Source of the DNA: Candidatus Aminicenantes bacterium
GTDB taxonomy: Bacteria > Acidobacteriota > Aminicenantia > UBA2199
Reading direction: 5' to 3'
Assembly: GCA_963732485.1 (NCBI GenBank)
Contig: CAVSZS010000003.1
Span: 278,087-342,086 of the forward strand
Length of the DNA stretch: 64,000 bases
This document shows, one piece after another, positions 1 through 41,950 of the stretch. The notes beneath the pieces are model-generated. The model was not told the DNA's origin. It saw only the letters and a list, made by a program, of their open reading frames with translations, and made no database searches. A program made the position numbers and the translations under genes. Positions within the stretch are counted from its first letter, which is position 1. Each line of letters opens with the position of its first letter.

Positions 1-243
1 CGTGTCACGGAGCGGAGTTCAAACGGCCAGCGGCGGCCCAACGCCGATCTCCCCAGAATTCTGATCAATACCAGGCGCAAGGCCAGCAGGGGATTTTTCC
101 GGGGACGAACGGGCAGGACGATGACGCTCGCGCACAGTCTGCTGGCTTCGCCGGGCGAGGCCGACCGCAAACCGGTCGGAATGACGAGCAAGGTGACGTC
201 ATACGCCGCAGCGAGGCATTCCAGGTTGCGGAACGCCCTCATG
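1..243 (-). CDS. partial CDS (first 81 codons only; gene continues beyond window start): putative glycosyltransferase N-terminus (GT-B fold)
   Basis: Minus-strand ATG at 241-243 with GGAGG upstream. Translation MRAFRNLECLAAAYDVTLLVIPTGLRSASPG... looks like a GT1/GT4 N-terminal Rossmann start. Truncated by the window edge. Confidence 0.3.
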
Positions 244-301
244 GCCAAACCGCCTCCGGTCGGACACGGCGTGATCGGACTCAAATAAAGGGCCCGCGGT
301 T

Positions 302-2128
302 TCAAGGCCGGATTCCCCCTGCCGCCTTGTTCTGCAAGGCGGTGATCAGGCGCTGCCGGCGGCTCACTTTTTTAAGTTGGACGAGCAGGTACCAGCAGCC
401 ATACAGCAAGATCATGCTGGGAGAACGGAGCAGGAAACGAAGGTGGCGGAAGGCGGAACGGTCATGCAGCTGCAGGCCAAGCTGCATGAGCCGGGCATGG
501 CAGATGAAGCGGTCGTGCCCCTTCACCGCCAAGCGCAAATCGAGCAGCGCGGTCAGGTAGCGGATGGATTCCGCGGCGGCTCCGGGCTGGCGCTGGGCAT
601 TTCCGGAGTGGATGCGGACCAATGAGAGAATACGCGGATGGAAGACGAACCGGCATCCCCGCTGGGCGAGCTCGAGCAGCAAAAGCCTTTCTTCGCCCAT
701 GCACAGGTCCGCTTGGAAGGGGGATTCCCCCAGGCAGGCTCTGCGGAACATGACGGAATTGATGGGAATGGCGAAGCGCAGGATCTCGCGGAAGGGATTC
801 TTTTCCAGGCGCTTGCCGTCAAACAGGTCGATCAGCCAGAATTTGGCCCGGACGGAGGCTTCCGGGCTTTGTTCCGAACGCGTCAGGACGGAGGGCACTG
901 AGGCAAAGCACATGCGGCTGCGGCAGACTACTATATCGGCGCCGGGATGGTCGTCGAGGAAATCCATGTTCAGTTCCAGAGCGCGGGCGTGGAGGAGATC
1001 GTCATCGTCGAGAAAAACCACCAAATCGCCTGTGGCTTTGGCCAGGCCGAAATTTCGAGCCGCGCTTACGCCCATGTTCTTTTTGAGGTGGAAAATGGAG
1101 ATGGATGGGTCCCAGTCGCCGATTTTCGCCATTTCCCTGCGGTTTTCCTCTGTTGAGCCGTCGTCGACGATGATGATTTCCGCCGCCGAGTGGCTTTGCC
1201 GGAGCAGTGAGCGGACGGCCATGCGCAGCAGCACGGGACGGTCGCAAGTGGGGACGATGACCGAGATGCGGGCGCCCGGGCGCCGCCGTAAGGGTTCCGG
1301 CGGCAGGAACTTCCTGGCGATGACATTGTAGGTGGTGTCGATCTCGCGGATGAATTTTTCGCTGATCATGGCGGCATGGAATGCCGAAAAATCGCGCCTA
1401 TTCTCCGACCACCAGAGATGTGCCCACAGGTGCATGCTGTAAATGCCGTGAAAATCACGGTCGCATCCCTGGAGCAACAGGTGGAGCCCGTGCGGCGTCC
1501 AAAGATGCCTGTAGAAACTCCGCGCCGGTTCAATGTGGATCAGTCCCGGATACCGCTGGCTGAGTTCGAACGGCAGCAGGGTCGAATGATTGCTCCATGT
1601 CCCGTTAAAAGCGGGGTGCATGCGCTCCAGCCAAATGCGTCCGAAAGCGGCGTCCTTTTTGGCCATGATCAAGGCGTTGCACAAGGATTGCCGTTTTTCG
1701 CCGGTGTCAGCGCAGACGATATCGCCCTCCTGTCCCAGGACGAAGTCGTGCTTCCAGAGTTCTTCCGGGAACGGCTGGACGAAAAGGGTATCGATATCGG
1801 CATAGACCCCGCCGTACTCGAGCAGTTTTTCCAGGCGGATGAAATCGGACTGGTGGGCGTAGCGGTACTTCCAGCAGGCGCGGTTTTTCAGCCCATAACG
1901 GGAAAAAGATATACGGTGTTTGCTGGCGATGCGCAGGGGGACCACTCTCCGCTTAGCGAGTTCCCAATAGGGCCCATAAGGTTCATGGTGATAAAAAAAG
2001 AGGATGCGATCGGGTTCATGGACCTGGAAACAGCTCTCGATGCAGAGAAAATGGCAGAGGTGGAAGGGTTGCCTCTGCCTTTTCATCCCGTAGATGAAAA
2101 TGAACTGCTTGGGGATCGTCGCGGTCAT
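302..2128 (-). CDS. two-domain glycosyltransferase: N-terminal DXD sugar-binding (GT32-like) domain fused to C-terminal GT2 domain
   Basis: 608-aa ORF. The N-terminal ~250 aa carries the Gly_transf_sug-type region (YADIDTLFVQPF, DXD). The C-terminal part has GT2 hallmarks ISVIVPTCDRP...IIIVDDGSTE...VVFLDDDD. Lies in the same operon as the other glycan genes. Confidence 0.7.
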   Translation of the reverse strand: MTATIPKQFIFIYGMKRQRQPFHLCHFLCIESCFQVHEPDRILFFYHHEPYGPYWELAKRRVVPLRIASKHRISFSRYGLKNRACWKYRYAHQSDFIRLEKLLEYGGVYADIDTLFVQPFPEELWKHDFVLGQEGDIVCADTGEKRQSLCNALIMAKKDAAFGRIWLERMHPAFNGTWSNHSTLLPFELSQRYPGLIHIEPARSFYRHLWTPHGLHLLLQGCDRDFHGIYSMHLWAHLWWSENRRDFSAFHAAMISEKFIREIDTTYNVIARKFLPPEPLRRRPGARISVIVPTCDRPVLLRMAVRSLLRQSHSAAEIIIVDDGSTEENRREMAKIGDWDPSISIFHLKKNMGVSAARNFGLAKATGDLVVFLDDDDLLHARALELNMDFLDDHPGADIVVCRSRMCFASVPSVLTRSEQSPEASVRAKFWLIDLFDGKRLEKNPFREILRFAIPINSVMFRRACLGESPFQADLCMGEERLLLLELAQRGCRFVFHPRILSLVRIHSGNAQRQPGAAAESIRYLTALLDLRLAVKGHDRFICHARLMQLGLQLHDRSAFRHLRFLLRSPSMILLYGCWYLLVQLKKVSRRQRLITALQNKAAGGIRP

Positions 2129-3267
2129 CGATCGACCTTGTTGCAGGCCGTGATCAATTTGCCGGTGATGGCGGTTGGATCGAATCGGGCTGCGATATGG
2201 GCTCCCAGCAATAGCCCCTTGTGACGGGCTTCTTCGCGATGGTCAAACACATGGCGCATCAGTTTCGCGGCGTGATCCAGGTCGGGCTCGGCCCAGCGCT
2301 GCTCGGCGGTGTAAGAAGGCCAGCCGTTCGGGTCATTCACCGCTGTCAATTGGAAATCGACCAGGTAGGCCAGCTCCGGGGGGAGGTAGTCCAACTGCCC
2401 GCCGTACCCGGTGATGATCACCGGCTTGGCCGCGGCCGCCGCCTGGAACGCCCCCAGACCCCAGCCTTCGGAATGGCAGAGCGAAACGAAGCAGTCGCCC
2501 CGTGCCTGCACTGCGGCCAGGTTGGCGGCATCGAACTCGCGGTCCAACAGCAGCACTGGTGCCAGGCCTTTTTTCCCACGCCCGAGCCGCCGCAAGGCGG
2601 CCCGGCTGCTTGCGCCCCGTCTGCATATGCCTGTTGCCGTAAGATCACGGCGGCTGGTCTTGATCACGAGCCGTACAGGTTCATTTGCCCGGAACGCCCG
2701 CCAATAACTCTGGATGGTGTACCCAATGGCTTTGCGGTTCGTCCAAGAACCGATGGTATAGAATACGAAGTCATCCGCCGGAAACTCCCAGGGGAACGGT
2801 GGCGGGTTCGTGCCGGGAGGATCGGGGATGTGCGGGACGACATCCATGGGGACGGCTACGCCCGAGCTCTGGAACACTTCCCGGTTCCAGCGGCAAGGGA
2901 CCAGCAGGCGGTCAAGCCGATTGAGCAGCGGCGGCCAGTGAACGGGCAGGCGGTCTGTCTCCCAGACGCAATAGCCGATCATCCGCTTCCCGGGTTCCGC
3001 CCGGAACGAGTTCGGGAAATATTCGGGTGGGACATGCAGGAGTACCGTGTCGTATTCCAGTGGCCGGTTGCAGAGCGGATCGAGCGCCGGGTCGCCTACG
3101 CTTCTTCCACCGCAGGGACGGTGGTGCGGGAAGCGGCGGAATCCCGGCCGCAGCGGCGTCCAGGTGACGGGGAAATCCGCAGCATGCAATCCCAGAAGAT
3201 AATTCCGGGCGGCATTGCCGTATCCGCTCGGGCCGAGGAACGAGATATAGCGGATTCCGCGTGCCAT
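2125..3267 (-). CDS. glycosyltransferase family 1 (GT4-like)
   Basis: ORF 2125..3510 trimmed to the ATG at 3265-3267 (MARGIRYISFLGPSGYG...), 1 nt after the upstream stop. C-terminal GT-B motif EGWGLGAFQAAAAAKPVIITGYGGQLDYL. Paralog of the next gene. Confidence 0.65.
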   Translation of the reverse strand: MARGIRYISFLGPSGYGNAARNYLLGLHAADFPVTWTPLRPGFRRFPHHRPCGGRSVGDPALDPLCNRPLEYDTVLLHVPPEYFPNSFRAEPGKRMIGYCVWETDRLPVHWPPLLNRLDRLLVPCRWNREVFQSSGVAVPMDVVPHIPDPPGTNPPPFPWEFPADDFVFYTIGSWTNRKAIGYTIQSYWRAFRANEPVRLVIKTSRRDLTATGICRRGASSRAALRRLGRGKKGLAPVLLLDREFDAANLAAVQARGDCFVSLCHSEGWGLGAFQAAAAAKPVIITGYGGQLDYLPPELAYLVDFQLTAVNDPNGWPSYTAEQRWAEPDLDHAAKLMRHVFDHREEARHKGLLLGAHIAARFDPTAITGKLITACNKVDR

Positions 3268-3268
3268 T

Positions 3269-4474
3269 TCAATCCGCTTCCAGGACCGCCAGGAGGCGGC
3301 CGATGATTTTATCGGCGGCGTATTCGCTGCGGATCCGGTTCTGCAGGATCTTCGCCTTGGCTCGGGCCGCGACAGGGTCGTTGAAGACCCGGTGCATGGA
3401 TGAGACGGCTTCGGCGAACCGCGGTTCCGCCCAGAGTTGGCTTGGATCGAAAAAGCGGCGGTTGTCGTCGTCCCTGGCCGAAACCAAGTCGCAGCCAACA
3501 AGGTGGGCATGGTCCGGGTCGAGGTAATCCAGCTGCCCGCCCCAGTCCGTGACGATCACCGGATTGCCGAATGATGCGGCGTCAAAGACGCCCATGCCCC
3601 ATCCTTCGCCGTGGGTCAGGGAAAGGTAGCAATCGCCCCGCAGATGCAGGGCTGTGATTTCGTTTTCAGCCAATTCCGCGGTGATCAATTCGATCCGTCC
3701 GCCGTTCGGACGGCGGGCAACGATGCTCCTGAGCTGTCCGTCCGCGTCGGGGCGGAAGGTGACCTGCGGCGGGACGTGCAGGTTATTGCGCAGGCGGACG
3801 TAAAGGCTTTTAAAAAAAACGTGACGGGTCATCCGGGTATGGCGGTAGGCCTGGGGGAATGTCTTGATAACGAACAGGACCGGGTCTTCCCGGCGGAACG
3901 CTTCCAGGTAGCAGCGGATGGCCAGGTCCAGGTTCTTGCGCGCTGTCCAGGTTTCGATGGCATAGAAGACGAAAGGCCGGCCGCCTTGCCGCCGCAGCGG
4001 AGCGCTGGTTGCGGCAGTGGAAGCGATATGGGGGATGACCGTTGTCGGGATCGTGATGCCGCAGCGGACCAGCGTCTCCCGGTTCCAGCGCGATGGCACG
4101 AGCAAGTGGTCGATTCCCTCCAGGCAAGATGGCCAGAAAGACGGGATGCGGTCCGTTTCCCAGGCCGTGTAGCCGAAGATCCGCCGGCCCTTTTCCAAAG
4201 CTGCCCAGCGGGGAAAAAGTTCGGGAGGCGTGTGAATGATTACCGTGTCGTACTCCAGTGGGCGGTTGCAGGACGGGTCCAGCTCGGGGTCACCGATGGC
4301 CCTTCCGGTGAAGGGCTCCAGCCCCAGACCCCAGGAACTCCCCGGGACCATCGGGGTCCAGGTGAAGGGGATGCCGCGCTGGCGCAAGCCAAGCATGTAG
4401 CGCTTGGCGGCGGCAAAGAAGCCAAGCGCCCCATATAGGGAGATGTACTTGATGCCCCTGAGCACATCAGCCAC
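3269..4474 (-). CDS. glycosyltransferase family 1 (tandem paralog of 2125..3267)
   Basis: 401 aa: MADVLRGIKYISLYGALGFF ... EGWGMGVFDAASFGNPVIVTDWGGQLDYLDPD. Collinear similarity to its neighbour indicates tandem duplication. Confidence 0.65.
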   Translation of the reverse strand: MADVLRGIKYISLYGALGFFAAAKRYMLGLRQRGIPFTWTPMVPGSSWGLGLEPFTGRAIGDPELDPSCNRPLEYDTVIIHTPPELFPRWAALEKGRRIFGYTAWETDRIPSFWPSCLEGIDHLLVPSRWNRETLVRCGITIPTTVIPHIASTAATSAPLRRQGGRPFVFYAIETWTARKNLDLAIRCYLEAFRREDPVLFVIKTFPQAYRHTRMTRHVFFKSLYVRLRNNLHVPPQVTFRPDADGQLRSIVARRPNGGRIELITAELAENEITALHLRGDCYLSLTHGEGWGMGVFDAASFGNPVIVTDWGGQLDYLDPDHAHLVGCDLVSARDDDNRRFFDPSQLWAEPRFAEAVSSMHRVFNDPVAARAKAKILQNRIRSEYAADKIIGRLLAVLEAD

Positions 4475-6281
4475 GGATCGCTCCGTCCAGTTTGAAGACC
4501 CGCTCGACCCCCCGCAGGATGCCCGGCTTATGGGAGACGATGATGGTCGTGCACCGTCCCGACAACTCGCCGAGAATGTCGGCCAGGACCGCTTCCGCCT
4601 CGCGGTCCAGGTTGGCCGATGCCTCGTCCAGGATCAACAGCGCCGGGCGTCGTAAGAAAGCCCTTGCCAGCGCCAACCTTTGCTTTTCCCCAGAGGAGAG
4701 CCCTTCCTCATTCTCCTGGATCAGATAATCGCAGCCGCCGGGCAGGCCGCTGACCAATTTCTCCAGGCGAACCAGGCGCAAGGCGTCCCAAATCTCCGAC
4801 TCGCTGGCCTGCCGTGCCGCTCCATAGAGCATGTTATCTCGTATCGATCCCTGAATCAGAAAATGGTCTTCGCTGACATAGCCGACTGTGATGTCGCGGC
4901 GGCCGATGACGCCGCCGGGGACGCCGTCGATGAGGATCTCCCCGCCGCCGGGCGTCAGTATCCCCAGGATCAGTCCCAGCAGCGTGCTTTTTCCGCACCC
5001 GTTCGCCCCGGTAATGCCGAAGCGGGCGCCTGGCGGGATGCTCAAGGAAAGATTGTCGATGACCGGTTGCGTCTGCTCCGGCCAGGAGAATGTCAGGCGT
5101 TCCAGGACGATTCCCGGCGGCCGCCGCGCCATGGCCGGGGGCGGTCCGTCCGGCAGCATGGGCATGCCCGATGTAGTCGCGCTGCCTCGTTTCGCTTCAA
5201 ACAGGCTGAAACGCTTTTCGGGTCTGACCGCAACGGCCAACTCTTCCGCCGGCATGCCGTTGAAAATACGCACAGCCATGTCGAACTGCGGTCGATATAG
5301 GCTCAGCAGGCCGATCTTCTCAAAGATCGGCATCAGGTTGCGTGAAAATGCCTGGAAGAGGTAGACGAAGCCCACGAGTTCCACCGCCGGAGTATGGAAA
5401 TAGCCCATATTCATGCCCACGATCAATGCCAGGCAAAGGATGCCGAAGAATGGCGGCATGACGACGGCCAGGTTGCGATAATAAAAAGTCCGCTTGCTGT
5501 GGCGGAAATAGCTCAGGCTGGAATCGACGAAACTCCGGTATTCCCGGTCCTCGATGCGCATGACGCGGATGAGGAACCAATTGCGGCAGATGCGGATCAG
5601 TGAGCGCTCCAGCACGATCCGCTCCCGGGGAACGTGCGCCGCTTCGCGCTTGATGGCGCGGTTCACCTTGTGCAGCAGCAGGCTGAAACCGCCCAGGCAG
5701 CCGATGCCCAGCAGGGTTTCCTTCCAGGCCAGGAACAGCATGCCCAGCAGGAGAAGGAAGGACAAGCAAAGGTTGGACGCCAGTTCGACGGCGCAATAAA
5801 CGTAATCGGAAGCCTTGGGGATGTACTCATTCATGACCATGTTGATCTGGCTCTGCGATACCGGGTGCTCGCCTTTCCAGAGCAGCATGCGGTACCCCTG
5901 GACGATCTTCAAGCGGCCGCGCACCAATTCCAGCATGGCGTGCAGGGCATGGCGCGAGGACAACTGGAACAGGGCCCGGAATCCGCCGACCGCAACCAGG
6001 ATGAAGAGAACCGTCACCGGGCTGGTGGTGCGGATGTCCATGATGACCCAGCGCGGGAACTTGGCGGCCGGTACCAGCTTCAGCAGGTTCAGGAACAGGA
6101 TCAGGATCAGTGTGAGCATGTATTCGCTCGCGGCCAGGAAAAAAGTGGACCCCAAGCCGATCCCGGCCCAGGCCACCCCCTTGCCGGCCAGCAGCCGGAG
6201 TACGTTGCGTATCCCGGCGGCCATCCCGGCGCCATGGTCCCCGGAAGGCGGATGGGCGCGACTGCATGGCCTTTTTTTCAT
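4467..6281 (-). CDS. ABC exporter, fused permease + ATP-binding half-transporter (MsbA/type-I exporter class)
   Basis: 604 aa. N-terminal multi-TM domain. C-terminal NBD with Walker A GANGCGKST, signature LSSGEKQRLALARAF and Walker B LLILDEAS. Start overlaps the Stealth gene stop (ATGA). Confidence 0.8.
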   Translation of the reverse strand: MKKRPCSRAHPPSGDHGAGMAAGIRNVLRLLAGKGVAWAGIGLGSTFFLAASEYMLTLILILFLNLLKLVPAAKFPRWVIMDIRTTSPVTVLFILVAVGGFRALFQLSSRHALHAMLELVRGRLKIVQGYRMLLWKGEHPVSQSQINMVMNEYIPKASDYVYCAVELASNLCLSFLLLLGMLFLAWKETLLGIGCLGGFSLLLHKVNRAIKREAAHVPRERIVLERSLIRICRNWFLIRVMRIEDREYRSFVDSSLSYFRHSKRTFYYRNLAVVMPPFFGILCLALIVGMNMGYFHTPAVELVGFVYLFQAFSRNLMPIFEKIGLLSLYRPQFDMAVRIFNGMPAEELAVAVRPEKRFSLFEAKRGSATTSGMPMLPDGPPPAMARRPPGIVLERLTFSWPEQTQPVIDNLSLSIPPGARFGITGANGCGKSTLLGLILGILTPGGGEILIDGVPGGVIGRRDITVGYVSEDHFLIQGSIRDNMLYGAARQASESEIWDALRLVRLEKLVSGLPGGCDYLIQENEEGLSSGEKQRLALARAFLRRPALLILDEASANLDREAEAVLADILGELSGRCTTIIVSHKPGILRGVERVFKLDGAIRG

Positions 6282-7336
6282 GAACGTCTTGCCTGTTTTT
6301 CGAAGCGAACCGGGTCGGGGAAAAACTCCTGCAGGAAGTCGTGCAGACGGTGCAGTAGCGGATGGTCGGCCGGTGCCTCCTCCAGGTCGTCATTGATGCA
6401 GAAGAATTTCGGCCTCAGACGGCCTATGCGGGTCAGCTTTTCGTTGACGCGTGGGAGGTCGTCCTCCAGCATCAGAAAAAAGTTGTCTTCGGATTCCCAA
6501 TCCAGCGCCACGGCCGACACGCGGCCGGCATAGCGGTCCGATTCCAGCAGTGAGTAGAAATAGGCCAGCCGCAGGACCAGGTCGTCATGGGATCGGAAGC
6601 GGTGGCTCCGGGTCGCGCGGAATTCGTCGGCGAGCAGAAACTCCAAATCCGCAAGCATTTCACGGTCATAAAGTTGCGGCGTGTGGGCTGGAAGCTTCCG
6701 CTGCGGCCGGCGGTGCAGGCAGCGGTCCTTCCAGGTGCAACGATACGCCGGCGACGCCTTTTTCCGCCTCGGCCGCCATAAACCGTCCAGCACCCTGACG
6801 GTGTGCAGGTAGGCTCGGTCGTGGACGGGGCCACGGGCAAAATGGCGGTTGACGGTGGTCGGCTCCACGAAAAAGCGGTATCCGCCGTCCTCGGGGAGAA
6901 AATCTTCACGCCGCGTTGCCCGGCCCAGGTACACATCGTCGTTCATATAAAGGAAACGGCGGGACAGGCCGGGGATGCGGTGCAGATTGAGCTCGATGGC
7001 GCAGGAATTGAATGTGGGCAGGCAGGAAGGGTCGGGAAAGACCGTTTCATGAAAGACCAGGCGGATGCGCCGGTCGTGACGGTTCAACCATTTCGGCGCC
7101 TGGCCGTTGGTGACGATGTGGATGTTCCCGGTCCAGGGAGCGAAAGATTCCAGCGAGCGCAGCGAATAGCGCAATTCATCGTTGTCGCGGAAACGATGGT
7201 CGCCGGTGGCTTCACCGGTCACTATGCCGCCATGACGGGCGGCGTGAAAGGCGAGTTGCCGCTGAAAACAGGGGTCGGCGCCGTCCACCCAAAGATAGAC
7301 CACATCGATTTTTTCCGTGTCGGAGCGTGCGTCCAT
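6278..7336 (-). CDS. Stealth-family sugar-1-phosphotransferase (capsule/EPS phosphotransferase)
   Basis: Stealth conserved regions read directly: CR1 DVVYLWVDGADP, CR2 DNDELRYSLRSLESFAPW, CR3 YMNDDVYLG. The start is either ATG 7334-7336 (1 nt after the methyltransferase stop) or the upstream in-frame ATG at 7420, which would overlap the preceding gene. Confidence 0.8.
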   Translation of the reverse strand: MDARSDTEKIDVVYLWVDGADPCFQRQLAFHAARHGGIVTGEATGDHRFRDNDELRYSLRSLESFAPWTGNIHIVTNGQAPKWLNRHDRRIRLVFHETVFPDPSCLPTFNSCAIELNLHRIPGLSRRFLYMNDDVYLGRATRREDFLPEDGGYRFFVEPTTVNRHFARGPVHDRAYLHTVRVLDGLWRPRRKKASPAYRCTWKDRCLHRRPQRKLPAHTPQLYDREMLADLEFLLADEFRATRSHRFRSHDDLVLRLAYFYSLLESDRYAGRVSAVALDWESEDNFFLMLEDDLPRVNEKLTRIGRLRPKFFCINDDLEEAPADHPLLHRLHDFLQEFFPDPVRFEKQARRS

Positions 7337-7337
7337 C

Positions 7338-8030
7338 TCAATTGCCACGGCGCGTACCCGGATTCCCGGCAGCGACGCGCTCGAAGAACGAGATGCGGAA
7401 AGGGCGTTCGGGATCGCCATGCAGCTTGGTCCCGAGCAGTCGCAGCCGGATGTCTTCCTGCAGAAAAGCGTCCCAGTCCTGCTCGAGCCGGAACCCCCCC
7501 CAGACGAGTGCCAGAGTGCCGCCGTCGGCCAGCAGCGCTGTCAACTTGTTTCGCACGGCCAAGCGCATGCGCAGCGGCCGCCAAAAGAAATAAAGGATCT
7601 CGGCGGCGATGATCAGGTCGTATGAACCTTTTTCCCGCAGGCGGAGGAAGTCGATGTGACGGATGCTCACCTGGCCAAGATGACCGCAGCGGCGGGAAGC
7701 CAGAGCCGCGGCCTTTTCAGAAATATCCACGCCGGTCACCTGTTTCCCCCGCCGGGCCAACATTTCGGTGAAGACGCCGATGCTGCAGCCGATCTCGAGA
7801 ATATGGTCATAGGAAGGTCGTGGCAGTTCGGCAAGGAGGGCGTTGTATTTCCTTTTTTCGTACGGACTGGATTCGTAGTTCCATGGATCGCGGTGGCGAT
7901 AAACGTGGGCGAAATAGGATTGTCCGAACTCTCGCAGCCCCAGGCGGCGGCAGAACGATCCCCAGATGCCAAGCGCCGCGGCACGGAACCCGATTTCGCC
8001 CCGGCCCAGCCGGCGCAGATTCAGGAGCAT
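7338..8030 (-). CDS. class I SAM-dependent methyltransferase
   Basis: 230 aa. Motif I ILEIGCSIGVFT, then VTGVDIS and the acidic post-II/III region DLIIAAEILYF. NodS/TPMT-like fold. Confidence 0.65.
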   Translation of the reverse strand: MLLNLRRLGRGEIGFRAAALGIWGSFCRRLGLREFGQSYFAHVYRHRDPWNYESSPYEKRKYNALLAELPRPSYDHILEIGCSIGVFTEMLARRGKQVTGVDISEKAAALASRRCGHLGQVSIRHIDFLRLREKGSYDLIIAAEILYFFWRPLRMRLAVRNKLTALLADGGTLALVWGGFRLEQDWDAFLQEDIRLRLLGTKLHGDPERPFRISFFERVAAGNPGTRRGN

Positions 8031-8935
8031 GAGTGCGCCTCGCTGCCCGAACCCTGCGCCGGCGTTTTTTCAGGCATCGTCCAGCCGCGCCAGCGCAAGG
8101 CGTTGACCCCGACATGAAGATGTTTTTTAACTTGCATGCTGTCGTCGCTCATGGCTGCCAAGTGGTCGAGCGGGGCAGCCGCGAAAACTTCGACCGCGCG
8201 GCAGGCGCGGCCAAGCAGGACCCCCTGGCAACACTGCACGTGCAGGGCGAGGTCGAAGATGAATTGCGATTGCGTGCGGTAACCCCTGAGCAGCGCCCGC
8301 TTGGAATCAAGAAAATTGCTGATATCCAGTACCATGTCGATCTCCTCCAGGGGGATCGGTGCGCGGAGCTGGAAAAAATAGGGGGCGATGCCGTCGGCCT
8401 TTGACAGCAGCAGGGCTTTGGCGGCCAGGAAAGCCGTGGTCCTGTGATCGGGATGGGGATCGCGCGGGTAAGGCATCAGCAGGAGCTCGGGCTTCTCTTT
8501 GTCCAGGATCGCCACAATTTTTTCGATCAGGACCGGATTTTCCCGCAAACGGCCGTCGGGTTGGTTAAAGAAGTAGGTCTGTCGGATGCCGAGGGCGCTT
8601 CCGGCCGCCTTGGTTTCGCGCAGGCGCGAGGAAATGTAGGCGAGCCGCTCGATGCCGGTGCGGTCGGCGGAACTGTCGGTCAAGTAAATGCAGGTGATCC
8701 GGGCGCCCAGACGATGATAGTGCGCTATCAGGCCAGCGCAGCCGATGATCTCGTCGTCCATATGCGGGACCAGCAGTACGATCCTTTGCCGGGACGGCAC
8801 GCCCTGCTGAAAGGGTTTGTTTTGCACCAGCGCCTGATAGCGCTGGCTTTGCCAGTAACATATCGTCCGGTTGATCCCTTTCAATATCTGCAATGCGGAG
8901 TGATGCAGCGGACCGTTTAGTAACTGGTCAACCAT
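8021..8935 (-). CDS. PIG-L/LmbE family N-acetylglucosaminyl deacetylase
   Basis: LLVPHMDDEIIGCAG (the HxDDE motif of the PIG-L family) and a downstream HPDH metal-binding signature (DPHPDHRTT). First gene of the 8935->302 operon. Confidence 0.7.
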   Translation of the reverse strand: MVDQLLNGPLHHSALQILKGINRTICYWQSQRYQALVQNKPFQQGVPSRQRIVLLVPHMDDEIIGCAGLIAHYHRLGARITCIYLTDSSADRTGIERLAYISSRLRETKAAGSALGIRQTYFFNQPDGRLRENPVLIEKIVAILDKEKPELLLMPYPRDPHPDHRTTAFLAAKALLLSKADGIAPYFFQLRAPIPLEEIDMVLDISNFLDSKRALLRGYRTQSQFIFDLALHVQCCQGVLLGRACRAVEVFAAAPLDHLAAMSDDSMQVKKHLHVGVNALRWRGWTMPEKTPAQGSGSEAHSCS

Positions 8936-9084
8936 GGGTCATGCACAATACCGATTTTTCGGTTTTTCATGAAGGCGCTTGGGGGAAAAAATAAAATACG
9001 GTTTCGGTCCATGCAAAAAGGATTTTAGAAAGTATTGACGAAAATTGCAAGATGCGCGTCGCCCGGCGCAGGCCTAGCGCCTTA

Positions 9085-9195
9085 GCTTTACTTTTGCCTT
9101 TTGCCTTCGTTTCTTCAATCGCCGTAAATTCTGGTGCTCTTCTCTAACTTTTGTCTTTTCTTGCCGTACACCGTCTAGCGTGTACCGTCTACGCT
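9085..9195. repeat. intergenic heptamer-repeat element, copy a (CTTTACTTTTGCCTTTTGCC ... CTTTTCTTGCCGTACACCGTCTAGCGTGTACCGTCTACG)
   Basis: Shares the CTTTTGCC heptad run and the CTTGCCGT(A/C)..ACCGTCTACCG core with the elements at 52968-53046 and 57148-57220. Contains the small palindrome GTACAC-N8-GTGTAC. Lies between the atpK stop and the glycan operon start. Confidence 0.5.
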
Positions 9196-9199
9196 CGCC

Positions 9200-9631
9200 T
9201 TAGCCGATGACTCCCAGCATGAAGACCATGATGAACAGCGCCACGGTCTCGATCAGGCCGATGACCATGATGAAGTTGCCGAAGCCCTTGCCGGTCTCGG
9301 CGAAGGCGTCGGCGGCGCAGGCGCCGGCCTTGCCCTGGTACCAGGCCGAAACGCCCATGGCCAGGCCGCCGAAGACGCCGATGCCCAGGAGCATGCCCGG
9401 GTCCAGTTTGCCGACGGCCGACTTGAGGGCGTTCATGAGGATGAAGCCGTAAACGGTCTGCGTCAGGGGCGCGCCGACAAAAGCCACCAGCATGAAGGGG
9501 GCGGGCTTGTTGAGGGCGAAGCACTTTTTCCAGGCGCCGATGGCGGCCATGCCGGCCACGCCGGCGCCGATGCCGGAGCCGACGGCGGCCAGGGCCATGG
9601 TGGCCGCGATTCCGATCAGTCCAAAGTTCAT
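9200..9631 (-). CDS. atpK: V-type ATP synthase subunit K (proteolipid c, 4-TM duplicated 16-kDa type)
   Basis: 143 aa, glycine-rich TM hairpins (GSGIGAGVAGMAAIGA) and the conserved GLIETVALF carboxylate helix. Last gene of the V-ATPase operon. Confidence 0.85.
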   Translation of the reverse strand: MNFGLIGIAATMALAAVGSGIGAGVAGMAAIGAWKKCFALNKPAPFMLVAFVGAPLTQTVYGFILMNALKSAVGKLDPGMLLGIGVFGGLAMGVSAWYQGKAGACAADAFAETGKGFGNFIMVIGLIETVALFIMVFMLGVIG

Positions 9632-9634
9632 GTT

Positions 9635-11467
9635 CTACTCCTTAAAGGGTTTGTAGGGCTTTCCCGACCATTCCATGCCCAGGTGCCCGGAAAACTCCAG
9701 CATGTTCAAACGCACGCCGTGAACGACGACCGACAGGGCGCCCATGGCCATGTTCAGCGAGTGCCCCAGCAGCAGGATGAGGAAGCCGACGACGATGCCG
9801 GGCGCGCCGCTGCCGAAGCCGGCAGCGATGGCGTTGAAGCTCTTGGAGATTTCGATCCCGGCCAGGCCGACGGCAAAGAGGCGGATATAGGAGATGATGT
9901 CCGAAAAAGCGCTGATGCTGCTCAAGAAGGTGGTCAGCAGGTTGGCGGCGCCCATGGCCGCGCCGCGCCAGAAACGCCCCTCCTGCTGGGAGAACAGGAC
10001 AACGGCCAAAAAGCCGCAGGCGATCATCCACTTGGCGTGCAGCGGGACGGGGAAGCGCTCGCCGCTGATCACCAGGCTCAACACCAGGTAGTACAGGCCC
10101 AGGACCATGGACAGCCATCCCAGCTGGGCGAGCGAGCGGATGAAAGGTTTGGCGCGGGCCTGGCGCAGGAAGCTCCAGAAATGGGCGATCGAAATGTGGG
10201 CGGCGCCGACGGTGAAGAAGATGATCTTGAACGTCTCGCCGCTCCTGGGGTTGAAGGCCGAGAGCGCCGGCACGATCATCCAGGACAGTCCGGGCAGGGC
10301 GGCCAGCTTTTGCGAGCCGAACCAGGTGCCGGTCAGGGCCCCCCAGAGGATGGTCGCGAGGCTCAACAGCAGCAGCAGGGAGAGAAACGGCGGCGGCGTT
10401 TCGCCCCGGCGCCGCGAGCGGCGGGACAGGAAAGCGGCGGCGCAAAAAAAGATGAGCCCGTATCCGGCGTCGCCGATGATAGCCGCGAAAAAGAAGGTGA
10501 AGAACAGCAGGAAAAAAAAGCTGATGTCGAATTCGCGATAGCCGGGGATGGTCCCCAGCAGCTGGAATACGGGGCTGATGATGTCGATCCATTTGTGGTT
10601 GCGGACAACCGTCGGCACGTCGTCTGCGGCGGCGGGGTCCTGCAGCAGCAGGGCCCAGCCATTGTCCCGGCAGCAATCCCTCAGCTTCTGGGTTTGGTCG
10701 GCCGGCAGGAAGCCGCCCAGGTAGGAGAGCGCGTCGGTATGGCCCATGGCCGCTGTCGCTTCAGCGAACTCGACCTCGCGGCCGGAGGCCACGACGGCGC
10801 GCTGAAGATCGCCGGCCGCGGCAGCGAGCCGCTCCATGTCCAGGTGCAGCCGCTCGCGGGCGGAACGGTTCGCGGCCCGAAGCTCCTCCAGCCGGGCGGC
10901 GTCAAGACGGGGCGGCTCGAGCGCCTTGAACTCGCAAGCGAACGCGGTCCCCGCTTTCAGGACCACGGCGACCCAGAGCAGTGCCTTGCCGCGCTTGACG
11001 ACGAAGGCGTCGCCGCCTTGCGGCAGCAGGCCGAGCTGGGCGGGCGGGACCTCGTAGAACCTGACCTCGAGGCCCGCGTCGCGGATGGCCTGCAATTCAG
11101 CGAGCGCCACGCCCTGCCATTCGCGGAGGCGGTCCTCCTCCCGCGCGAGGGCTCCCTGTTCTTCATCGAGCCGGCGCAGGCCCTCCTGCGTGTCCATGAT
11201 GGCGCGCGCCGTGGCCAGGGCGGTTTCGAGGCCGCCTTCCGCCAGCTGCGTATCCTGCGCGGACCCTGAAGCTCCGTGCCGGGGGGGAGCGATCACGGCC
11301 AGGGCTTTTTCGAGAAGCCCCGTCTTTTCCCGCCACTCCTGGGCCGGCAGGACCTGGGCGGGGACATCGCTGAGGTGCAGAACGCCGAGCTGGCGCAGCC
11401 GCTGCAGCGCCTGCGCCTTGCTCTCGCGGCGGGCGATCACCGTCGCTTTCTTCATGGCGACGATCAT
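9635..11467 (-). CDS. atpI: V-type ATP synthase subunit I (a subunit)
   Basis: ORF 9635..11884 trimmed to ATG 11465-11467 (MIVAMKKATVIARRESKAQALQRLRQLGVLHL...), which overlaps the atpD stop (ATGA). Soluble coiled-coil N-domain plus multi-TM C-domain. The upstream ORF extension is Arg/Pro-rich junk. Confidence 0.75.
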   Translation of the reverse strand: MIVAMKKATVIARRESKAQALQRLRQLGVLHLSDVPAQVLPAQEWREKTGLLEKALAVIAPPRHGASGSAQDTQLAEGGLETALATARAIMDTQEGLRRLDEEQGALAREEDRLREWQGVALAELQAIRDAGLEVRFYEVPPAQLGLLPQGGDAFVVKRGKALLWVAVVLKAGTAFACEFKALEPPRLDAARLEELRAANRSARERLHLDMERLAAAAGDLQRAVVASGREVEFAEATAAMGHTDALSYLGGFLPADQTQKLRDCCRDNGWALLLQDPAAADDVPTVVRNHKWIDIISPVFQLLGTIPGYREFDISFFFLLFFTFFFAAIIGDAGYGLIFFCAAAFLSRRSRRRGETPPPFLSLLLLLSLATILWGALTGTWFGSQKLAALPGLSWMIVPALSAFNPRSGETFKIIFFTVGAAHISIAHFWSFLRQARAKPFIRSLAQLGWLSMVLGLYYLVLSLVISGERFPVPLHAKWMIACGFLAVVLFSQQEGRFWRGAAMGAANLLTTFLSSISAFSDIISYIRLFAVGLAGIEISKSFNAIAAGFGSGAPGIVVGFLILLLGHSLNMAMGALSVVVHGVRLNMLEFSGHLGMEWSGKPYKPFKE

Positions 11468-12069
11468 GCCGCCCCCTCCCTGTGCAACAGGTTCTTCTTG
11501 GCGATCTTGCCCCTGACCACTGCGGCGGTCTGCTGGTCGCCCAGGTATATATTGATCTTGCGGATGCTTTCGATCGCCTCGGGGATCTTGACCTTCTCGA
11601 ACAGGTTCACCCGCTGGCTCGTCACCCGCAATTCGGCCGCCAGCAGTTCGACCTGCCGCCGCCGCAGGCCGATCTCGACGTCCAGACGGGCGAGCCCGGC
11701 GAAAAGGTCGAGGGCGGCGTCCACCCAGGGGGGGGTCAGGAACAGGTCGTGGCCCGCGGTCGTGAAGGCGATGGACGTGAACATCGGGATCTCCACGCCG
11801 GCGATATTGGCCGGCTCGGTCTCCACGCGTGCGACGCGCAGCCAGTCCGAGAAGGGGAACGGCTCGGCAAAGAGCTCCAGCCACGGCGCCGCGCCGTCGG
11901 CCAGCTCCCGGCGTTTCCGGGTTTCGTCGGCCAGCCGGCCTTCGAGCTGCCGGATGACCATCTGCAGCTGCTGCTTTTTGAGGAGCAGCGTCGGCAGGTA
12001 GCGGCGGTAGCGCCGCAGGGCGTCCTTGCGCCTCTTCAGCTCGGTCTTGGTCAGCTTGACGGCGGCCAT
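11464..12069 (-). CDS. atpD: V-type ATP synthase subunit D
   Basis: 201 aa, MAAVKLTKTELKRRKDALRRYRRYLPTLLLKKQQLQ..., basic coiled-coil central stalk subunit. Synteny B-D-I. Confidence 0.85.
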   Translation of the reverse strand: MAAVKLTKTELKRRKDALRRYRRYLPTLLLKKQQLQMVIRQLEGRLADETRKRRELADGAAPWLELFAEPFPFSDWLRVARVETEPANIAGVEIPMFTSIAFTTAGHDLFLTPPWVDAALDLFAGLARLDVEIGLRRRQVELLAAELRVTSQRVNLFEKVKIPEAIESIRKINIYLGDQQTAAVVRGKIAKKNLLHREGAA

Positions 12070-12071
12070 GC

Positions 12072-13381
<1,310 letters not shown>

Positions 13382-13385
<4 letters not shown>

Positions 13386-15169: not shown

Positions 15170-15170
15170 G

Positions 15171-15713: not shown

Positions 15714-15714
15714 G

Positions 15715-27562: not shown

Positions 27563-27593
27563 TTCCGGCCCGCCCATGCCCTGTCCCGGCGCC

Positions 27594-28766: not shown

Positions 28767-28805
28767 GGCGGGCGCCGGAAGCAGAGCGTACGCTCAGGCC
28801 TCCGT

Positions 28806-29603: not shown

Positions 29604-29634
29604 CGCGCGCTCGCGCTCTCGTCGGGCCAAGGGG

Positions 29635-37782: not shown

Positions 37783-37785
37783 GGC

Positions 37786-41949: not shown

Positions 41950-41950
41950 C

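What the first reader, a model, noticed from the sequence alone, without database searches (positions are those of the whole stretch)
302..8935. Stealth-centred phosphoglycan synthesis/export operon with an unusual accessory gene set
Seven co-directional, mostly overlapping minus-strand genes lie here, plus a truncated GT at the window edge. They are a PIG-L-type de-N-acetylase, a class-I SAM methyltransferase, a Stealth sugar-1-phosphotransferase (CR1 DVVYLWVDG, CR2 ELRYSLRS, CR3 YMNDD, read directly), an MsbA-type fused ABC half-transporter, two tandem GT1 paralogs and a GT32-GT2 two-domain enzyme. Stealth enzymes build sugar-1-phosphate (phosphodiester-linked) polymers, for example meningococcal A/X-type capsules and the eukaryotic GlcNAc-1-phosphotransferase. 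Here the gene is combined not with a KpsMT/Ctr capsule transporter but with a type-I exporter. The deacetylase and methyltransferase suggest de-N-acetylated and/or methylated HexNAc-phosphate units. The predicted product is an undescribed anionic phospho-polysaccharide or phosphoglycolipid.
Basis: partly seen in the sequence, partly recalled or inferred. Interest (0 to 1): 0.7.

Follow-up and report, generated by a model that had tools for sequence, protein, structure and literature searches.

The report
Stealth phosphoglycan synthesis and export operon
This is a tightly packed operon from an uncultured anaerobic bacterium that most likely builds a lipid-linked sugar chain containing a sugar-phosphate bridge, tailors it by removing an acetyl group and adding a methyl group, and flips it across the membrane; every gene family is known, and only the combination is uncharacterised.

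Summary
Eight co-directional minus-strand genes (junctions -10 to +1 nt) encode a PIG-L deacetylase, a NodS-type SAM methyltransferase and a Stealth hexose-1-phosphotransferase (CR1-CR4 all above Pfam thresholds). They also encode a fused TMD-NBD ABC exporter, two paralogous GT4-like enzymes, a GT32-GT2 fusion and a GT4 cut by the window edge.

Relatives at 96, 75, 54 and 51% Stealth identity keep the same order. The 75% relative ends with a WecG/TagA-family transferase. The 54% relative is preceded by a WecA-type initiating transferase and a Wzy_C ligase-like protein. This points to assembly on polyprenyl-PP-GlcNAc and ABC flipping, as in H. pylori Wzk or C. jejuni PglK. It does not fit a Kps-type capsule or a free glycolipid.

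The conserved core across 62 species-level genomes is GT4-like + GT32 (+GT2+GT1). Stealth and this ABC occur in subsets. PIG-L plus NodS-MT occur only in this clade, as a clean two-gene indel. Methanothrix carries the same Stealth/GT core with a non-orthologous deacetylase, methyltransferase and Wzm/Wzt.

Verdict: a real, uncharacterised variant of a known kind of glycan pathway. The product chemistry is unproven. Interest is moderate.

The parts
8936..9199 (-). Intergenic spacer of 264 nt upstream of the operon, holding a sigma-70-like candidate promoter (TTGCAA-17-TAAAAT, 9050-9022).
   Evidence: The number of promoter-like matches in the region is no higher than in shuffled sequence, so this is only a candidate. 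No Rfam element was found.
8021..8935 (-). PIG-L/LmbE-family (CE14) zinc de-N-acetylase, 304 aa, with no TM segment.
   Evidence: Pfam PIG-L 2e-25. Best solved relatives are Pyrococcus diacetylchitobiose deacetylase (9e-15), BC1534 and BshB. The motifs PHMDDE (res 57) and HPDH (res 161) align with the PHPDD/HPDH motifs of the solved enzymes. No hydrophobic segment was found.
7338..8030 (-). NodS-like class-I SAM-dependent methyltransferase, 230 aa.
   Evidence: Pfam NodS 84 bits (GA 24). The NCBIfam NodS equivalog scores 81 bits against a cut-off of 300, so it is not an ortholog. The best PDB match is NodS 3ofj at 3e-18 over residues 46-178, including the N-terminal DPW region. SAM motif I is LEIGCSIG at residue 78.
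6278..7336 (-). Stealth-family hexose-1-phosphate transferase, 352 aa.
   Evidence: Pfam CR1-CR4 are all above threshold. PDB matches are the GNPTAB catalytic domain (2.8e-47) and M. tuberculosis CpsY 8j2n (1.5e-38). The start at Met29 of the maximal ORF follows from homologue lengths and external gene calls.
4467..6281 (-). Fused TMD-NBD ABC half-transporter, 604 aa, the proposed flippase or exporter of the lipid-linked glycan.
   Evidence: ABC_tran 2.2e-26. Walker A GANGCGKST, signature LSSGEKQR, Walker B LLILDEA and H-loop SHK are present. Hydrophobic segments fall in a 2+2+2 pattern separated by long loops. TMD homologues P0437 and P0420 (E 8.5e-18 and 1.2e-19 to this TMD) pass the Pfam ABC_membrane threshold. 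Orthologues co-occur with the GT cassette in five further independent lineages.
3269..4474 (-). GT4-like GT-B glycosyltransferase, paralog a, 401 aa, GTG start.
   Evidence: Weak Pfam Glycos_transf_1 hit, below GA. The profile matches PDB 3oy2 at 1.2e-12. It is conserved as the first of a tandem pair in L002, L003, L004 and Methanothrix.
2125..3267 (-). GT4-like GT-B glycosyltransferase, paralog b, 380 aa, 41% identical to paralog a.
   Evidence: The start at 3267 is fixed by alignment with orthologues and by external gene calls.
302..2128 (-). Two-domain glycosyltransferase, 608 aa. The N-terminal part is GT32 (Gly_transf_sug, DxD = DID at 111). The C-terminal part is a GT2 GT-A domain.
   Evidence: Pfam. 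The two domains are separate adjacent genes in L002/L072, L003, L004 and L070.
1..305 (-). N-terminal ~100 codons of a further GT4 glycosyltransferase, cut by the window edge. The start is TTG at 305, overlapping the upstream stop by 4 nt.
   Evidence: The N-terminus LKPRALYLSPITP... matches MKPHLLYLSPVTP... of the 419-aa GT4 in L002. An independent assembly of the same operon calls a 393-aa GT4 here.

Best explanation
The operon encodes a cytoplasmic-face assembly line for a polyprenyl-diphosphate-linked hetero-oligosaccharide or polysaccharide. The steps below are marked as inferred or as family-level inference.
1. Priming on undecaprenyl phosphate is done by a WecA-type enzyme encoded elsewhere (inferred).
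2. A WecG/TagA-type enzyme probably adds the second sugar. Its gene follows the GT4 in the sister operon and probably lies just beyond the window edge (inferred).
3. Three GT4-type enzymes, a GT32 domain and a GT2 domain extend the chain (family-level inference; donors unknown).
4. The Stealth enzyme inserts one phosphodiester-linked hexos(amin)e by transferring Hex(NAc)-1-phosphate from a UDP-sugar to a sugar hydroxyl, releasing UMP (family-level inference).
5. A separable two-gene tailoring module acts before export. PIG-L removes the N-acetyl group of a HexNAc residue, and the NodS-like enzyme methylates the freed amine. This is the logic NodB/NodS use on Nod factors (inferred).
6. The dedicated homodimeric ABC half-transporter, a divergent type IV/MsbA-PglK-class exporter, flips the finished lipid-linked glycan to the periplasmic face.
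7. An unlinked Wzy_C-type ligase attaches the glycan to its final acceptor, probably lipid A-core or a protein, since the organism looks diderm.
For: Shown:
- Eight translationally coupled genes, with the family assignments above.
- All enzymes lack TM segments and only the ABC protein is membrane-embedded. Synthesis and tailoring are therefore cytoplasmic and export comes last.
- Gene order is conserved at 96, 75, 54 and 51% Stealth identity.

Polyprenyl-PP linkage:
- The complete sister operon (L072) ends with a WecG/TagA-family gene (PF03808, 4e-54) and is bounded by unrelated genes.
- L004 has a Glycos_transf_4 (WecA/MraY-family) gene and a Wzy_C (O-antigen-ligase-family, 2e-16) gene immediately upstream.
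- In Methanothrix, Chloroflexota and Acidobacteriota the same Stealth/GT core is paired with Wzm/Wzt exporters. In Methanothrix a cis-prenyltransferase gene is also adjacent.

Precedents:
- WecA + GTs + a PglK-like ABC flippase (Wzk) + WaaL is the established H. pylori O-antigen route (PMC2841628).
- Stealth enzymes inside O-units are known (PMC3989065).

Tailoring pair:
- L003 and L004 are collinear at 84-87% DNA identity. They differ only by a 1.59-kb insertion that is exactly PIG-L + NodS-MT.
- The methyltransferase's best family and best solved relative are both NodS.
- Methanothrix has a CE4 (NodB-family) deacetylase plus a methyltransferase at the equivalent position.
- Terminal alpha-GlcNMe exists in a bacterial LPS core (PMC5542761).

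Diderm host: a LolA-like protein and MacB/FtsX-type permeases are encoded in the window.
Against: - No initiating phosphoglycosyltransferase, WecG or ligase was detected anywhere in the 64-kb window. tblastn with the L004 and L072 proteins was negative at 1e-5.
- The minimal cassette in Syntrophorhabdaceae (L070) also lacks all three.
- The presence of WecG in this genome is only inferred, because the DNA beyond the edge could not be retrieved.
- The ABC TMD is too divergent for a direct Pfam or PDB match.
- The ABC family lacks the canonical Q-loop glutamine.
- No sequence feature fixes the donor sugars, the residue that is deacetylated, or N- versus O-methylation. The NCBIfam NodS equivalog threshold is not met.
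- The methyltransferase domains fused to Stealth (P0112) or to this ABC family (P0336) are only about 26% identical to this methyltransferase. They do not support a specific functional link.
Confidence: 0.55

Rival explanations
1. The product is a phosphoglycolipid built on a membrane lipid, not on polyprenyl-PP. A GT4 puts GlcNAc on a lipid head group (phosphatidylinositol or diacylglycerol) and PIG-L de-N-acetylates it, as in PIG-A/PIG-L of GPI synthesis or MshA/MshB and BshA/BshB. Alternatively, Stealth itself transfers sugar-1-phosphate to a lipid alcohol. The other GTs extend the head group, and the MsbA-like ABC protein flips the glycolipid.
For: A GT4 gene sits directly next to PIG-L in L004, and BshB is among the best PIG-L matches. 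No priming phosphoglycosyltransferase is found in the window or in the self-contained L070 cassette. The NBD resembles the MsbA, CydDC and T1SS classes.
Against: The sister operon carries WecG/TagA, an enzyme family that acts on Und-PP-GlcNAc. WecA-type and Wzy_C genes abut the cassette in L004. The same core uses Wzm/Wzt exporters elsewhere, and those handle polyprenyl-PP-linked polymers. PIG-L is dispensable for the cassette, as shown by L003, L070 and many others, so it cannot be a core head-group step.
Confidence: 0.15
2. The pathway is the same, but the tailoring chemistry differs. The methyltransferase is an O- or phospho-methyltransferase that installs a chain-terminating, export-licensing methyl cap, as WbdD does in E. 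coli O8/O9a. PIG-L independently leaves a free amine.
For: Class-I methyltransferases recur with this system in non-orthologous forms. One is fused to Stealth (P0089, P0112). One is fused to this ABC family (P0336). A 451-aa methyltransferase sits next to a long Wzt in Methanothrix. The NodS equivalog threshold is not met.
Against: The methyltransferase is gained and lost strictly together with the deacetylase. Its closest family and closest solved structure are the N-methyltransferase NodS, including the NodS-specific N-terminal region. More distant relatives of this methyltransferase (40% identity) are not in glycan loci.
Confidence: 0.2
3. The locus makes a group-2-like capsule: a homopolymeric sugar-1-phosphate chain polymerised by Stealth, as in meningococcal serogroups A and X.
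For: Stealth enzymes are the polymerases of the NmA and NmX capsules (PMC5974469). The gene lies in an export operon.
Against: No KpsM/T, KpsE/D or KpsC/S equivalents are in the operon. The exporter is a fused half-transporter. Five additional GT domains are strictly co-conserved with it. The only ABC-2 transporter in the window belongs to a separate locus 20 kb away.
Confidence: 0.03
4. The locus makes a Nod-factor-like secreted lipo-chitooligosaccharide: the GT2 acts as a NodC-like synthase, followed by a deacetylase, NodS and an exporter.
For: A NodS-like methyltransferase next to a deacetylase, together with a GT2 and an ABC exporter, superficially mirrors nodBCS-IJ.
Against: The GT2 domain has no membrane-embedded processive-synthase part, and its NodC match is 3e-7 over the N-terminus only. 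No NodA acyltransferase is present. The deacetylase is PIG-L rather than NodB/CE4. The exporter is not NodIJ-type. The presence of Stealth and four other GTs would be unexplained.
Confidence: 0.02

Closest known systems
Stealth-containing O-antigen loci (WfgC of E. coli O152 / Shigella dysenteriae 12; gene 20D of Haemophilus parainfluenzae strain 20; PMC3989065)
   Same: A single Stealth gene is embedded among ordinary GT genes of a polyprenyl-PP-linked glycan pathway. It is predicted to insert one alpha-HexNAc-1-P-6-Hex phosphodiester into the unit.
   Different: The loci described there use ABC-transporter-dependent or Wzy-polymerase-dependent assembly. They have no PIG-L/NodS module and unrelated GT sets. 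No orthology beyond the Stealth family was shown here.
Helicobacter pylori Wzk / Campylobacter jejuni PglK route (WecA or PglC, cytoplasmic GTs, fused ABC half-transporter flippase, WaaL or PglB; PMC2841628)
   Same: Overall logic: complete assembly on the cytoplasmic face, a fused TMD-NBD ABC flippase instead of Wzx or Wzm/Wzt, and ligation by a Wzy_C-type enzyme. Such an enzyme is seen next to the cassette in L004.
   Different: The TMD here belongs to a small, divergent subfamily: 365 representatives among 1.84 billion proteins, with no direct Pfam or PDB hit. The family lacks the Q-loop glutamine. Flippase activity is untested, and WecA and the ligase are not in this window.
Neisseria meningitidis serogroup A/X capsule polymerases (Stealth enzymes, named CsaB and CsxA from my own knowledge) with the CtrABCD exporter
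   Same: They use the same Stealth catalytic family, which transfers hexosamine-1-phosphate.
   Different: Those enzymes are homopolymerases working with Kps/Ctr ABC-2 transporters on a lipid-Kdo primer. Here Stealth is one of seven or eight transferases and the transporter is of a different class.
NodB/NodS tailoring of rhizobial Nod factors (NodS structure: PDB 3ofj)
   Same: De-N-acetylation of a HexNAc followed by SAM-dependent N-methylation of the freed amine. The methyltransferase is NodS-like by Pfam and by its best PDB hit.
   Different: The deacetylase is PIG-L/CE14 rather than NodB/CE4. The substrate is presumably a lipid-linked glycan rather than a chitooligosaccharide. The methyltransferase does not meet the NodS equivalog threshold.
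Wall teichoic acid and ECA linkage-unit enzymes (TagO/WecA and TagA/WecG)
   Same: A WecG/TagA-family gene closes the sister operon and a WecA-family gene neighbours another relative. Together with a phosphodiester-forming enzyme, this gives a teichoic-acid-like construction principle.
   Different: There are no TagB/TagF polyol-phosphate transferases and no TagGH. Sugar-1-phosphate replaces glycerol or ribitol phosphate. The WecG gene was not seen in the window itself.
GT4 + PIG-L pairs of GPI, mycothiol and bacillithiol synthesis (PIG-A/PIG-L, MshA/MshB, BshA/BshB)
   Same: A retaining GT4 and a PIG-L-family deacetylase are encoded together. BshB is among the best matches.
   Different: Those pathways make small molecules or a PI-anchored core. 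Here the pair is embedded in a multi-GT export operon, and PIG-L is an optional accessory.

Membership tests
Stealth (hexose-1-phosphoryltransferase; Pfam PF17101/PF11380/PF17102/PF17103) | [quoted passage not shown] | tested here: met
   CR1 39.4 bits, CR2 143.7 bits, CR3 42.9 bits and CR4 44.1 bits, all above the gathering scores, at residues 36-57, 76-180, 245-283 and 332-379 of the 380-aa ORF.
Stealth (hexose-1-phosphoryltransferase; Pfam PF17101/PF11380/PF17102/PF17103) | Homology to experimentally characterised members (GNPTAB catalytic domain, CpsY) | tested here: met
   phmmer against PDB sequences gives 7s6n at 2.8e-47 and 8j2n (CpsY) at 1.5e-38. The CR3 segment PAHTPQLYDR aligns with PAHMPHMIDR of GNPTAB. 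A CR3 arginine (R419) is reported as strictly required in CpsY (PMC10668966), but the alignment to CpsY was not inspected residue by residue here.
Stealth (hexose-1-phosphoryltransferase; Pfam PF17101/PF11380/PF17102/PF17103) | Transfer of hexose-1-phosphate from a UDP-sugar to a sugar hydroxyl | not testable with these tools
   This needs an enzyme assay.
PIG-L / LmbE (CE14) zinc-dependent de-N-acetylase | The family domain, with the metal-binding/catalytic motifs (A/P)H(P)DD near the N-terminus and HxxH downstream | tested here: met
   PF02585 at 90.2 bits against GA 28.2. PHMDDE at residue 57 and HPDH at residue 161 align with PHPDD and HPDH of Pyrococcus diacetylchitobiose deacetylase.
NodS (Nod-factor N-methyltransferase) | Match to the Pfam NodS family and to the solved NodS structure | tested here: met
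   PF05401 at 84.4 bits against GA 24. 3ofj at E 3e-18 over residues 46-178.
NodS (Nod-factor N-methyltransferase) | Equivalog-level identity with rhizobial NodS (NCBIfam NF041650) | tested here: not met
   81.3 bits against a cut-off of 300. The protein is NodS-like, not NodS.
NodS (Nod-factor N-methyltransferase) | N-methylation of a de-N-acetylated terminal hexosamine | not testable with these tools
   Supported only indirectly, by strict co-inheritance with the deacetylase.
Type IV (MsbA/PglK/Sav1866-fold) ABC exporter half-transporter | NBD with Walker A, signature motif, Walker B + catalytic Glu, and H-loop | tested here: met
   GANGCGKST (425), LSSGEKQR (528), LLILDEA (548) and SHK (583). 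These are conserved in 134 of 136 aligned sequences (134 family members plus the window protein and MsbA). The canonical Q-loop Gln is absent: it is E471 here and A/P in most of the family.
Type IV (MsbA/PglK/Sav1866-fold) ABC exporter half-transporter | N-terminal six-helix ABC_membrane (PF00664) transmembrane domain | tested here: inconclusive
   The window protein gives no hit, and three orthologues give about 19 bits, below GA 28. The profile search against PDB and hhalign against the MsbA TMD were both negative. However, family members P0437 (37.2 bits) and P0420 (36.1 bits) pass GA over profile positions 3-246 of 274. They match the window TMD at E 8.5e-18 and 1.2e-19. Hydropathy shows the expected 2+2+2 helix pattern. 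The single-sequence AF2 model was unusable.
Wzk/PglK-type lipid-linked-glycan pathway | An initiating polyprenyl-phosphate HexNAc-1-P transferase and a WaaL/OTase-type ligase in the same system | tested here: not met
   Neither gene is in the 64-kb window. Both lie adjacent to the cassette in relative L004. The rest of the 344-kb source contig could not be read.
Group 2 (Kps/Ctr) capsule system | KpsM/KpsT ABC-2 transporter with KpsE/KpsD and KpsC/KpsS in the locus | tested here: not met
   None of these is among the operon products. The only ABC2_membrane protein in the window belongs to a separate locus at 30.4-31.3 kb.
CAZy GT4-type GT-B glycosyltransferase (the two tandem paralogs) | Significant match to GT-B/GT4 models or structures | tested here: met
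   Single sequences fall below the Pfam GA (21-24 bits). The 8-sequence profile hits GT4 B736L (3oy2) at 1.2e-12, then TreT, WbaZ-1 and BshA. Distant plasmid homologues are annotated as GT family 4. The N-terminal ~130 residues match nothing. The AF2 model was unusable.

The most novel reading that the evidence does not exclude
The operon may be one form of a so-far unrecognised glycan system that is modular and shared across domains. A conserved GT4-like/GT32/GT2/GT1 core occurs in many bacterial phyla and in Methanothrix. It recruits Stealth, a deacetylase + methyltransferase pair and an exporter in interchangeable, non-orthologous versions. Here the exporter belongs to a small ABC family of its own that lacks the Q-loop glutamine. 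The product would carry a zwitterionic N-methyl-hexosamine-1-phosphate cap. In the more radical version, Stealth primes synthesis directly on a lipid alcohol, so no classical initiating transferase is needed.
Probability: 0.15. Interest if true: 0.6.

Novelty: new variant of a known kind. Interest (0 to 1): 0.35.

Why it matters
If the model is right, this is an uncharacterised but widespread way of making phosphodiester-containing surface glycans in uncultured anaerobes of sediments and digesters, and by gene transfer in the methanogen Methanothrix. It would add a dedicated family of PglK/Wzk-like flippases that tolerate loss of the Q-loop glutamine. It would also add a PIG-L + NodS-like 'deacetylate then N-methylate' module that could produce the rare sugar N-methyl-hexosamine. 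Both would be useful parts for glycoengineering. For the biology of the organism itself it is probably one more surface-glycan locus. It does not overturn any current concept.

Tried and rejected
- The exact-sequence look-up of the 380-aa Stealth ORF failed because the start was wrong. Look-ups with other operon proteins found only short Logan contigs without DNA. The 344-kb source contig could not be read, so the genes left of the window remain unseen.
- The taxon could not be fixed. The nearest named relatives of the 2-oxoacid:ferredoxin oxidoreductase alpha subunit are MAGs labelled Binatia, Aminicenantes and Chrysiogenia at 81-90% identity.
- The profile of the ABC TMD against PDB sequences gave no hit at E<=10. 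hhalign against the E. coli MsbA TMD gave probability 0.8%. The single-sequence AlphaFold model of the ABC protein had pLDDT 40, and the two-sequence model of the GT4-like protein had pLDDT 33. Neither was usable, so no fold search was run.
- A Rosetta-stone argument from the Stealth-MT and MT-ABC fusions was rejected. Those methyltransferase domains are only about 26% identical to the operon's methyltransferase.
- The second ABC-type ORF at 29.6-31.4 kb is unrelated apart from the NBD. It belongs to a Wzm/Wzt locus.
- A distant homologue of the methyltransferase (40% identity, L073) is not in a glycan context.
- Rfam found nothing in 1-12000. The promoter and terminator scans were not above chance.
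- Literature searches for a characterised orthologous locus (Stealth with ABC, deacetylase and methyltransferase; NodS with LmbE; GT32 in O-antigen loci) found none.
- The plasmid collection holds only distant (<33% identity) GT4 homologues of the tandem GTs.

Full report
**1. What is in the sequence**

Between 1 and 8935 the minus strand carries eight consecutive genes:
- 8021-8935, 304 aa
- 7338-8030, 230 aa
- 6278-7336, 352 aa
- 4467-6281, 604 aa
- 3269-4474, 401 aa
- 2125-3267, 380 aa
- 302-2128, 608 aa
- 1-305, the first ~100 codons of a further gene cut by the window edge

The junctions are -10, +1, -4, -8, +1, -4 and -4 nt. GC by codon position is typical of coding sequence: GC3 0.73-0.80 against GC2 0.41-0.48. 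The long plus-strand ORFs in the region are shadow ORFs. Independent gene calls on two other assemblies of the same operon give the same protein lengths: 304/230/352/604/401/380/608, followed by a 393-aa GT4. A 264-nt spacer separates the operon from a V/A-type ATPase operon on the same strand. It contains one sigma-70-like match, but such matches are not above chance. G+C is 60-62% here, against 65-69% in the next 24 kb.

**2. Family assignments**

Pfam gives:
- PIG-L, 2e-25.
- NodS family, 1.3e-23, plus generic class-I methyltransferase models.
- Stealth CR2 2.8e-42, CR4 2e-11, CR3 4.7e-11 and CR1 4.9e-10.
- ABC_tran, 2.2e-26.
- Gly_transf_sug (GT32) 2e-9 and Glycos_transf_2 7e-29 in the 608-aa protein.

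Against solved structures:
- The Stealth protein matches the GlcNAc-1-phosphotransferase catalytic domain (2.8e-47) and M. tuberculosis CpsY (1.5e-38).
- The methyltransferase matches NodS (3ofj, 3e-18).
- The deacetylase matches Pyrococcus diacetylchitobiose deacetylase, BC1534 and BshB, with PHMDDE and HPDH aligned to their metal and catalytic motifs.

The two tandem GTs are 41% identical paralogs. Each scores below Pfam thresholds and has no NCBIfam model. A profile of eight orthologues hits the GT4 enzyme B736L (3oy2) at 1.2e-12, then TreT, WbaZ-1 and BshA. They are therefore GT-B/GT4-like, with an N-terminal ~130 residues that match nothing known.

Only the ABC protein has hydrophobic segments. 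These are arranged 2+2+2 with long intervening loops.

**3. The ABC transporter**

The NBD has all the catalytic motifs. Its best NCBIfam matches are the T1SS, CydDC, MsbA and PglK classes, but only over residues ~385-600.

The TMD gave several negative or weak results:
- No Pfam hit of its own, and 19-bit sub-threshold ABC_membrane hits in three orthologues.
- No PDB hit with a profile.
- No significant hhalign match to the MsbA TMD.

An exhaustive phmmer search of 1.84 billion representatives found only 365 relatives at E<=1e-3 (40 at <=1e-30). Almost all are 560-620 aa. Two of them, P0437 and P0420, pass the ABC_membrane gathering score over nearly the whole model. They match the window TMD at 8.5e-18 and 1.2e-19. 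The protein is therefore a divergent member of the type IV (MsbA/PglK-fold) exporters, shown by transitive homology.

An unexpected family trait is the absence of the canonical Q-loop glutamine. The family consensus is GYVG[A/P][E/D]PFLI, against LVSQNVHLF in MsbA, and the window protein has Glu471. Walker A, Walker B, the catalytic Glu, the signature Ser and the H-loop are conserved in 134 of 136 aligned sequences, which are 134 family members plus the window protein and MsbA.

**4. Conservation and modularity**

The closest relatives keep the gene order:
- L001 (96% Stealth identity) has the same V-ATPase neighbour.
- L002/L072 (75%) is shown in full in L072: PIG-L, NodS-MT, Stealth, ABC, GT4-like x2, GT32, GT2, GT4, WecG/TagA. 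It is flanked by unrelated genes.
- L004 (54%) reads Wzy_C, WecA-family, amine oxidase, GT4, PIG-L, NodS-MT, Stealth, ABC, GT4-like x2, GT32, GT2-GT1 fusion.
- L003 (51%) has the same order as L004 but without PIG-L and NodS-MT.

L003 and L004 are collinear at 84-87% DNA identity. They differ by a clean 1.59-kb indel that is exactly the PIG-L + methyltransferase pair. GT32 and GT2 are fused here but separate elsewhere. GT2 and GT1 are fused in L003, L004 and L070. These are ordinary fusions among cooperating GTs.

A scan of one genome per species with the GT4-like profile returned 62 loci:
- 44 have the GT4-like gene adjacent to GT32.
- 7 also have Stealth.
- 4 have this ABC family at full length.
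- 3 have both Stealth and this ABC: Desulfobacteraceae, Kiritimatiellota and Syntrophorhabdaceae.
- None has PIG-L or the NodS-like methyltransferase.

The word-based search found only 17 relatives of the methyltransferase at E<=1e-15. About eight of them are orthologues. A 40%-identical relative is not in a glycan locus. The picture is a conserved GT core, to which Stealth, an exporter and tailoring genes are added as modules.

**5. The Methanothrix version**

Three Methanothrix genomes carry MT (451 aa), Wzm, Wzt (425 aa), a CE4/NodB-family deacetylase, Stealth, GT4-like a and b, GT32, GT2 and GT1, with a cis-prenyltransferase nearby. L010, the one contig checked, is clearly archaeal (RIO1 kinase, PNO1-type KH protein). 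Orthologous Wzm/Wzt genes accompany the cassette in Chloroflexota and Acidobacteriota loci.

The same Stealth/GT core is thus combined with a non-orthologous deacetylase, a non-orthologous methyltransferase and a different class of ABC exporter. This supports three inferences:
- The glycan is assembled on a polyprenyl carrier.
- Deacetylation plus methylation is a recurrent tailoring theme for this glycan.
- The fused ABC protein here does the job that Wzm/Wzt does elsewhere.

**6. Most likely mechanism**

Und-P is primed by a WecA-type enzyme encoded elsewhere. A WecG/TagA-type enzyme and the three GT4-type, GT32 and GT2 activities build the chain on the cytoplasmic face. Stealth inserts a Hex(NAc)-1-phosphate. 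PIG-L and the NodS-like enzyme convert one HexNAc into HexNMe. The ABC homodimer flips the product, and a Wzy_C-type ligase transfers it.

The host seems diderm, because a LolA-like protein and MacB/FtsX permeases are encoded in the window. Lipid A-core is therefore a plausible acceptor.

Precedents exist for each element:
- WecA, GTs, Wzk and WaaL in H. pylori (PMC2841628).
- Stealth enzymes inside O-units (PMC3989065).
- NodB/NodS chemistry.
- Terminal alpha-GlcNMe in a Bradyrhizobium LPS core (PMC5542761).

Whether the product is a defined oligosaccharide or a repeating poly(oligosaccharide phosphate) cannot be decided from sequence.

Weak points are:
- No priming enzyme, WecG or ligase is in the window.
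- The self-contained L070 cassette lacks them too.
- N-methylation, as opposed to O-methylation, is inferred only from family resemblance and co-inheritance.

I put the overall model at about 0.55. The general statement that this is a Stealth-containing glycan assembly and export operon is near certain.

**7. Comparison with what is known, and novelty**

Every component belongs to a known family, and the pathway logic has precedents. Three things are not described, as far as the searches show:
- This conserved cassette as a unit.
- Its dedicated, Q-loop-less exporter subfamily.
- A PIG-L + NodS-like tailoring pair inside a surface-glycan operon.

It is not a Kps-type capsule locus, not a Nod-factor locus and not a NodS orthologue. 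I classify it as a new variant of a known kind, of moderate interest. Glycan loci are notoriously diverse, and nothing here contradicts current concepts.

Noticed in passing
window 4467-6281 (residue E471 of the ABC protein) and family members P0288-P0437: The whole ABC subfamily lacks the canonical Q-loop glutamine. The family consensus is GYVG[A/P][E/D]PFLI, against LVSQNVHLF in MsbA. All other ATPase motifs are conserved in 134 of 136 aligned sequences. This is unusual for a presumably homodimeric exporter.
   Followed up: partly
L009, L010, L011 (Methanothrix MAGs), e.g. L010:3883-16472: The same Stealth + GT4-like x2 + GT32 + GT2 + GT1 core (41-57% identity) sits on Methanothrix MAG contigs; L010, the one checked, is clearly archaeal. 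It sits with a CE4 deacetylase, a 451-aa methyltransferase, Wzm/Wzt and a cis-prenyltransferase. This implies inter-domain transfer of the cassette among co-occurring anaerobes.
   Followed up: partly
window 27207-32260: A second, separate glycan locus. It holds a GT4 (27207-28766, +), a GT2_4-like protein (28806-29657, -), a Wzt-like NBD (~29.7-30.4 kb, -), a Wzm ABC2_membrane protein (30363-31331, -) and a GT2 (31175-32260, -).
   Followed up: partly
window 31103-31194 (+): ARAGORN calls a 92-nt tRNA-Pro(TGG) here, antisense to the Wzm coding region. Its unusual length and position suggest a false positive or an odd element.
   Followed up: no
window 36250-43003: A trehalose island with lower G+C (53-57%, against ~65% in the flanks). 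It holds a GT20 OtsA-like protein (510 aa), a TreT trehalose synthase (449 aa) and an OtsA-OtsB fusion (736 aa), followed by an MscS channel. It is possibly a horizontally acquired osmoadaptation module.
   Followed up: no
window 9200-16350 (-): A V/A-type ATPase operon lies directly upstream of the glycan operon on the same strand. Pfam hits for the I, D, A, B and c subunits were seen in the 96% relative L001, where the arrangement is the same.
   Followed up: partly
window 20615-24534 (-): A LolA-like protein, two FtsX/MacB-type permeases and an ABC ATPase form a Lol- or MacB-like system. This indicates a diderm envelope.
   Followed up: no
P0336 (899 aa); P0089 and P0112 (603 and 613 aa); L071: A class-I methyltransferase is fused to the N-terminus of an ABC protein of this family. 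Separately, methyltransferases are fused to Stealth proteins. These methyltransferase domains are only ~26% identical to the operon's methyltransferase, so methylation recurs with the system but in non-orthologous forms.
   Followed up: partly
L070:10001-18940 (Syntrophorhabdaceae chromosome): A minimal, self-contained cassette: Stealth, ABC, one GT4-like gene and GT32, with a convergent GT2-GT1 fusion and an OafA-type acyltransferase (Acyl_transf_3 + SGNH). It has no priming enzyme or ligase nearby and is flanked by ClpB and arginase genes.
   Followed up: partly
window 3269-4474 and 2125-3267 (N-terminal ~130 residues of both GT4-like proteins): A highly conserved N-terminal region matches no Pfam, NCBIfam or PDB sequence. 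Its invariant motifs include TWTP, CN, Y.WET and VP..WN. It is presumably a family-specific acceptor-binding half of the GT-B fold.
   Followed up: partly
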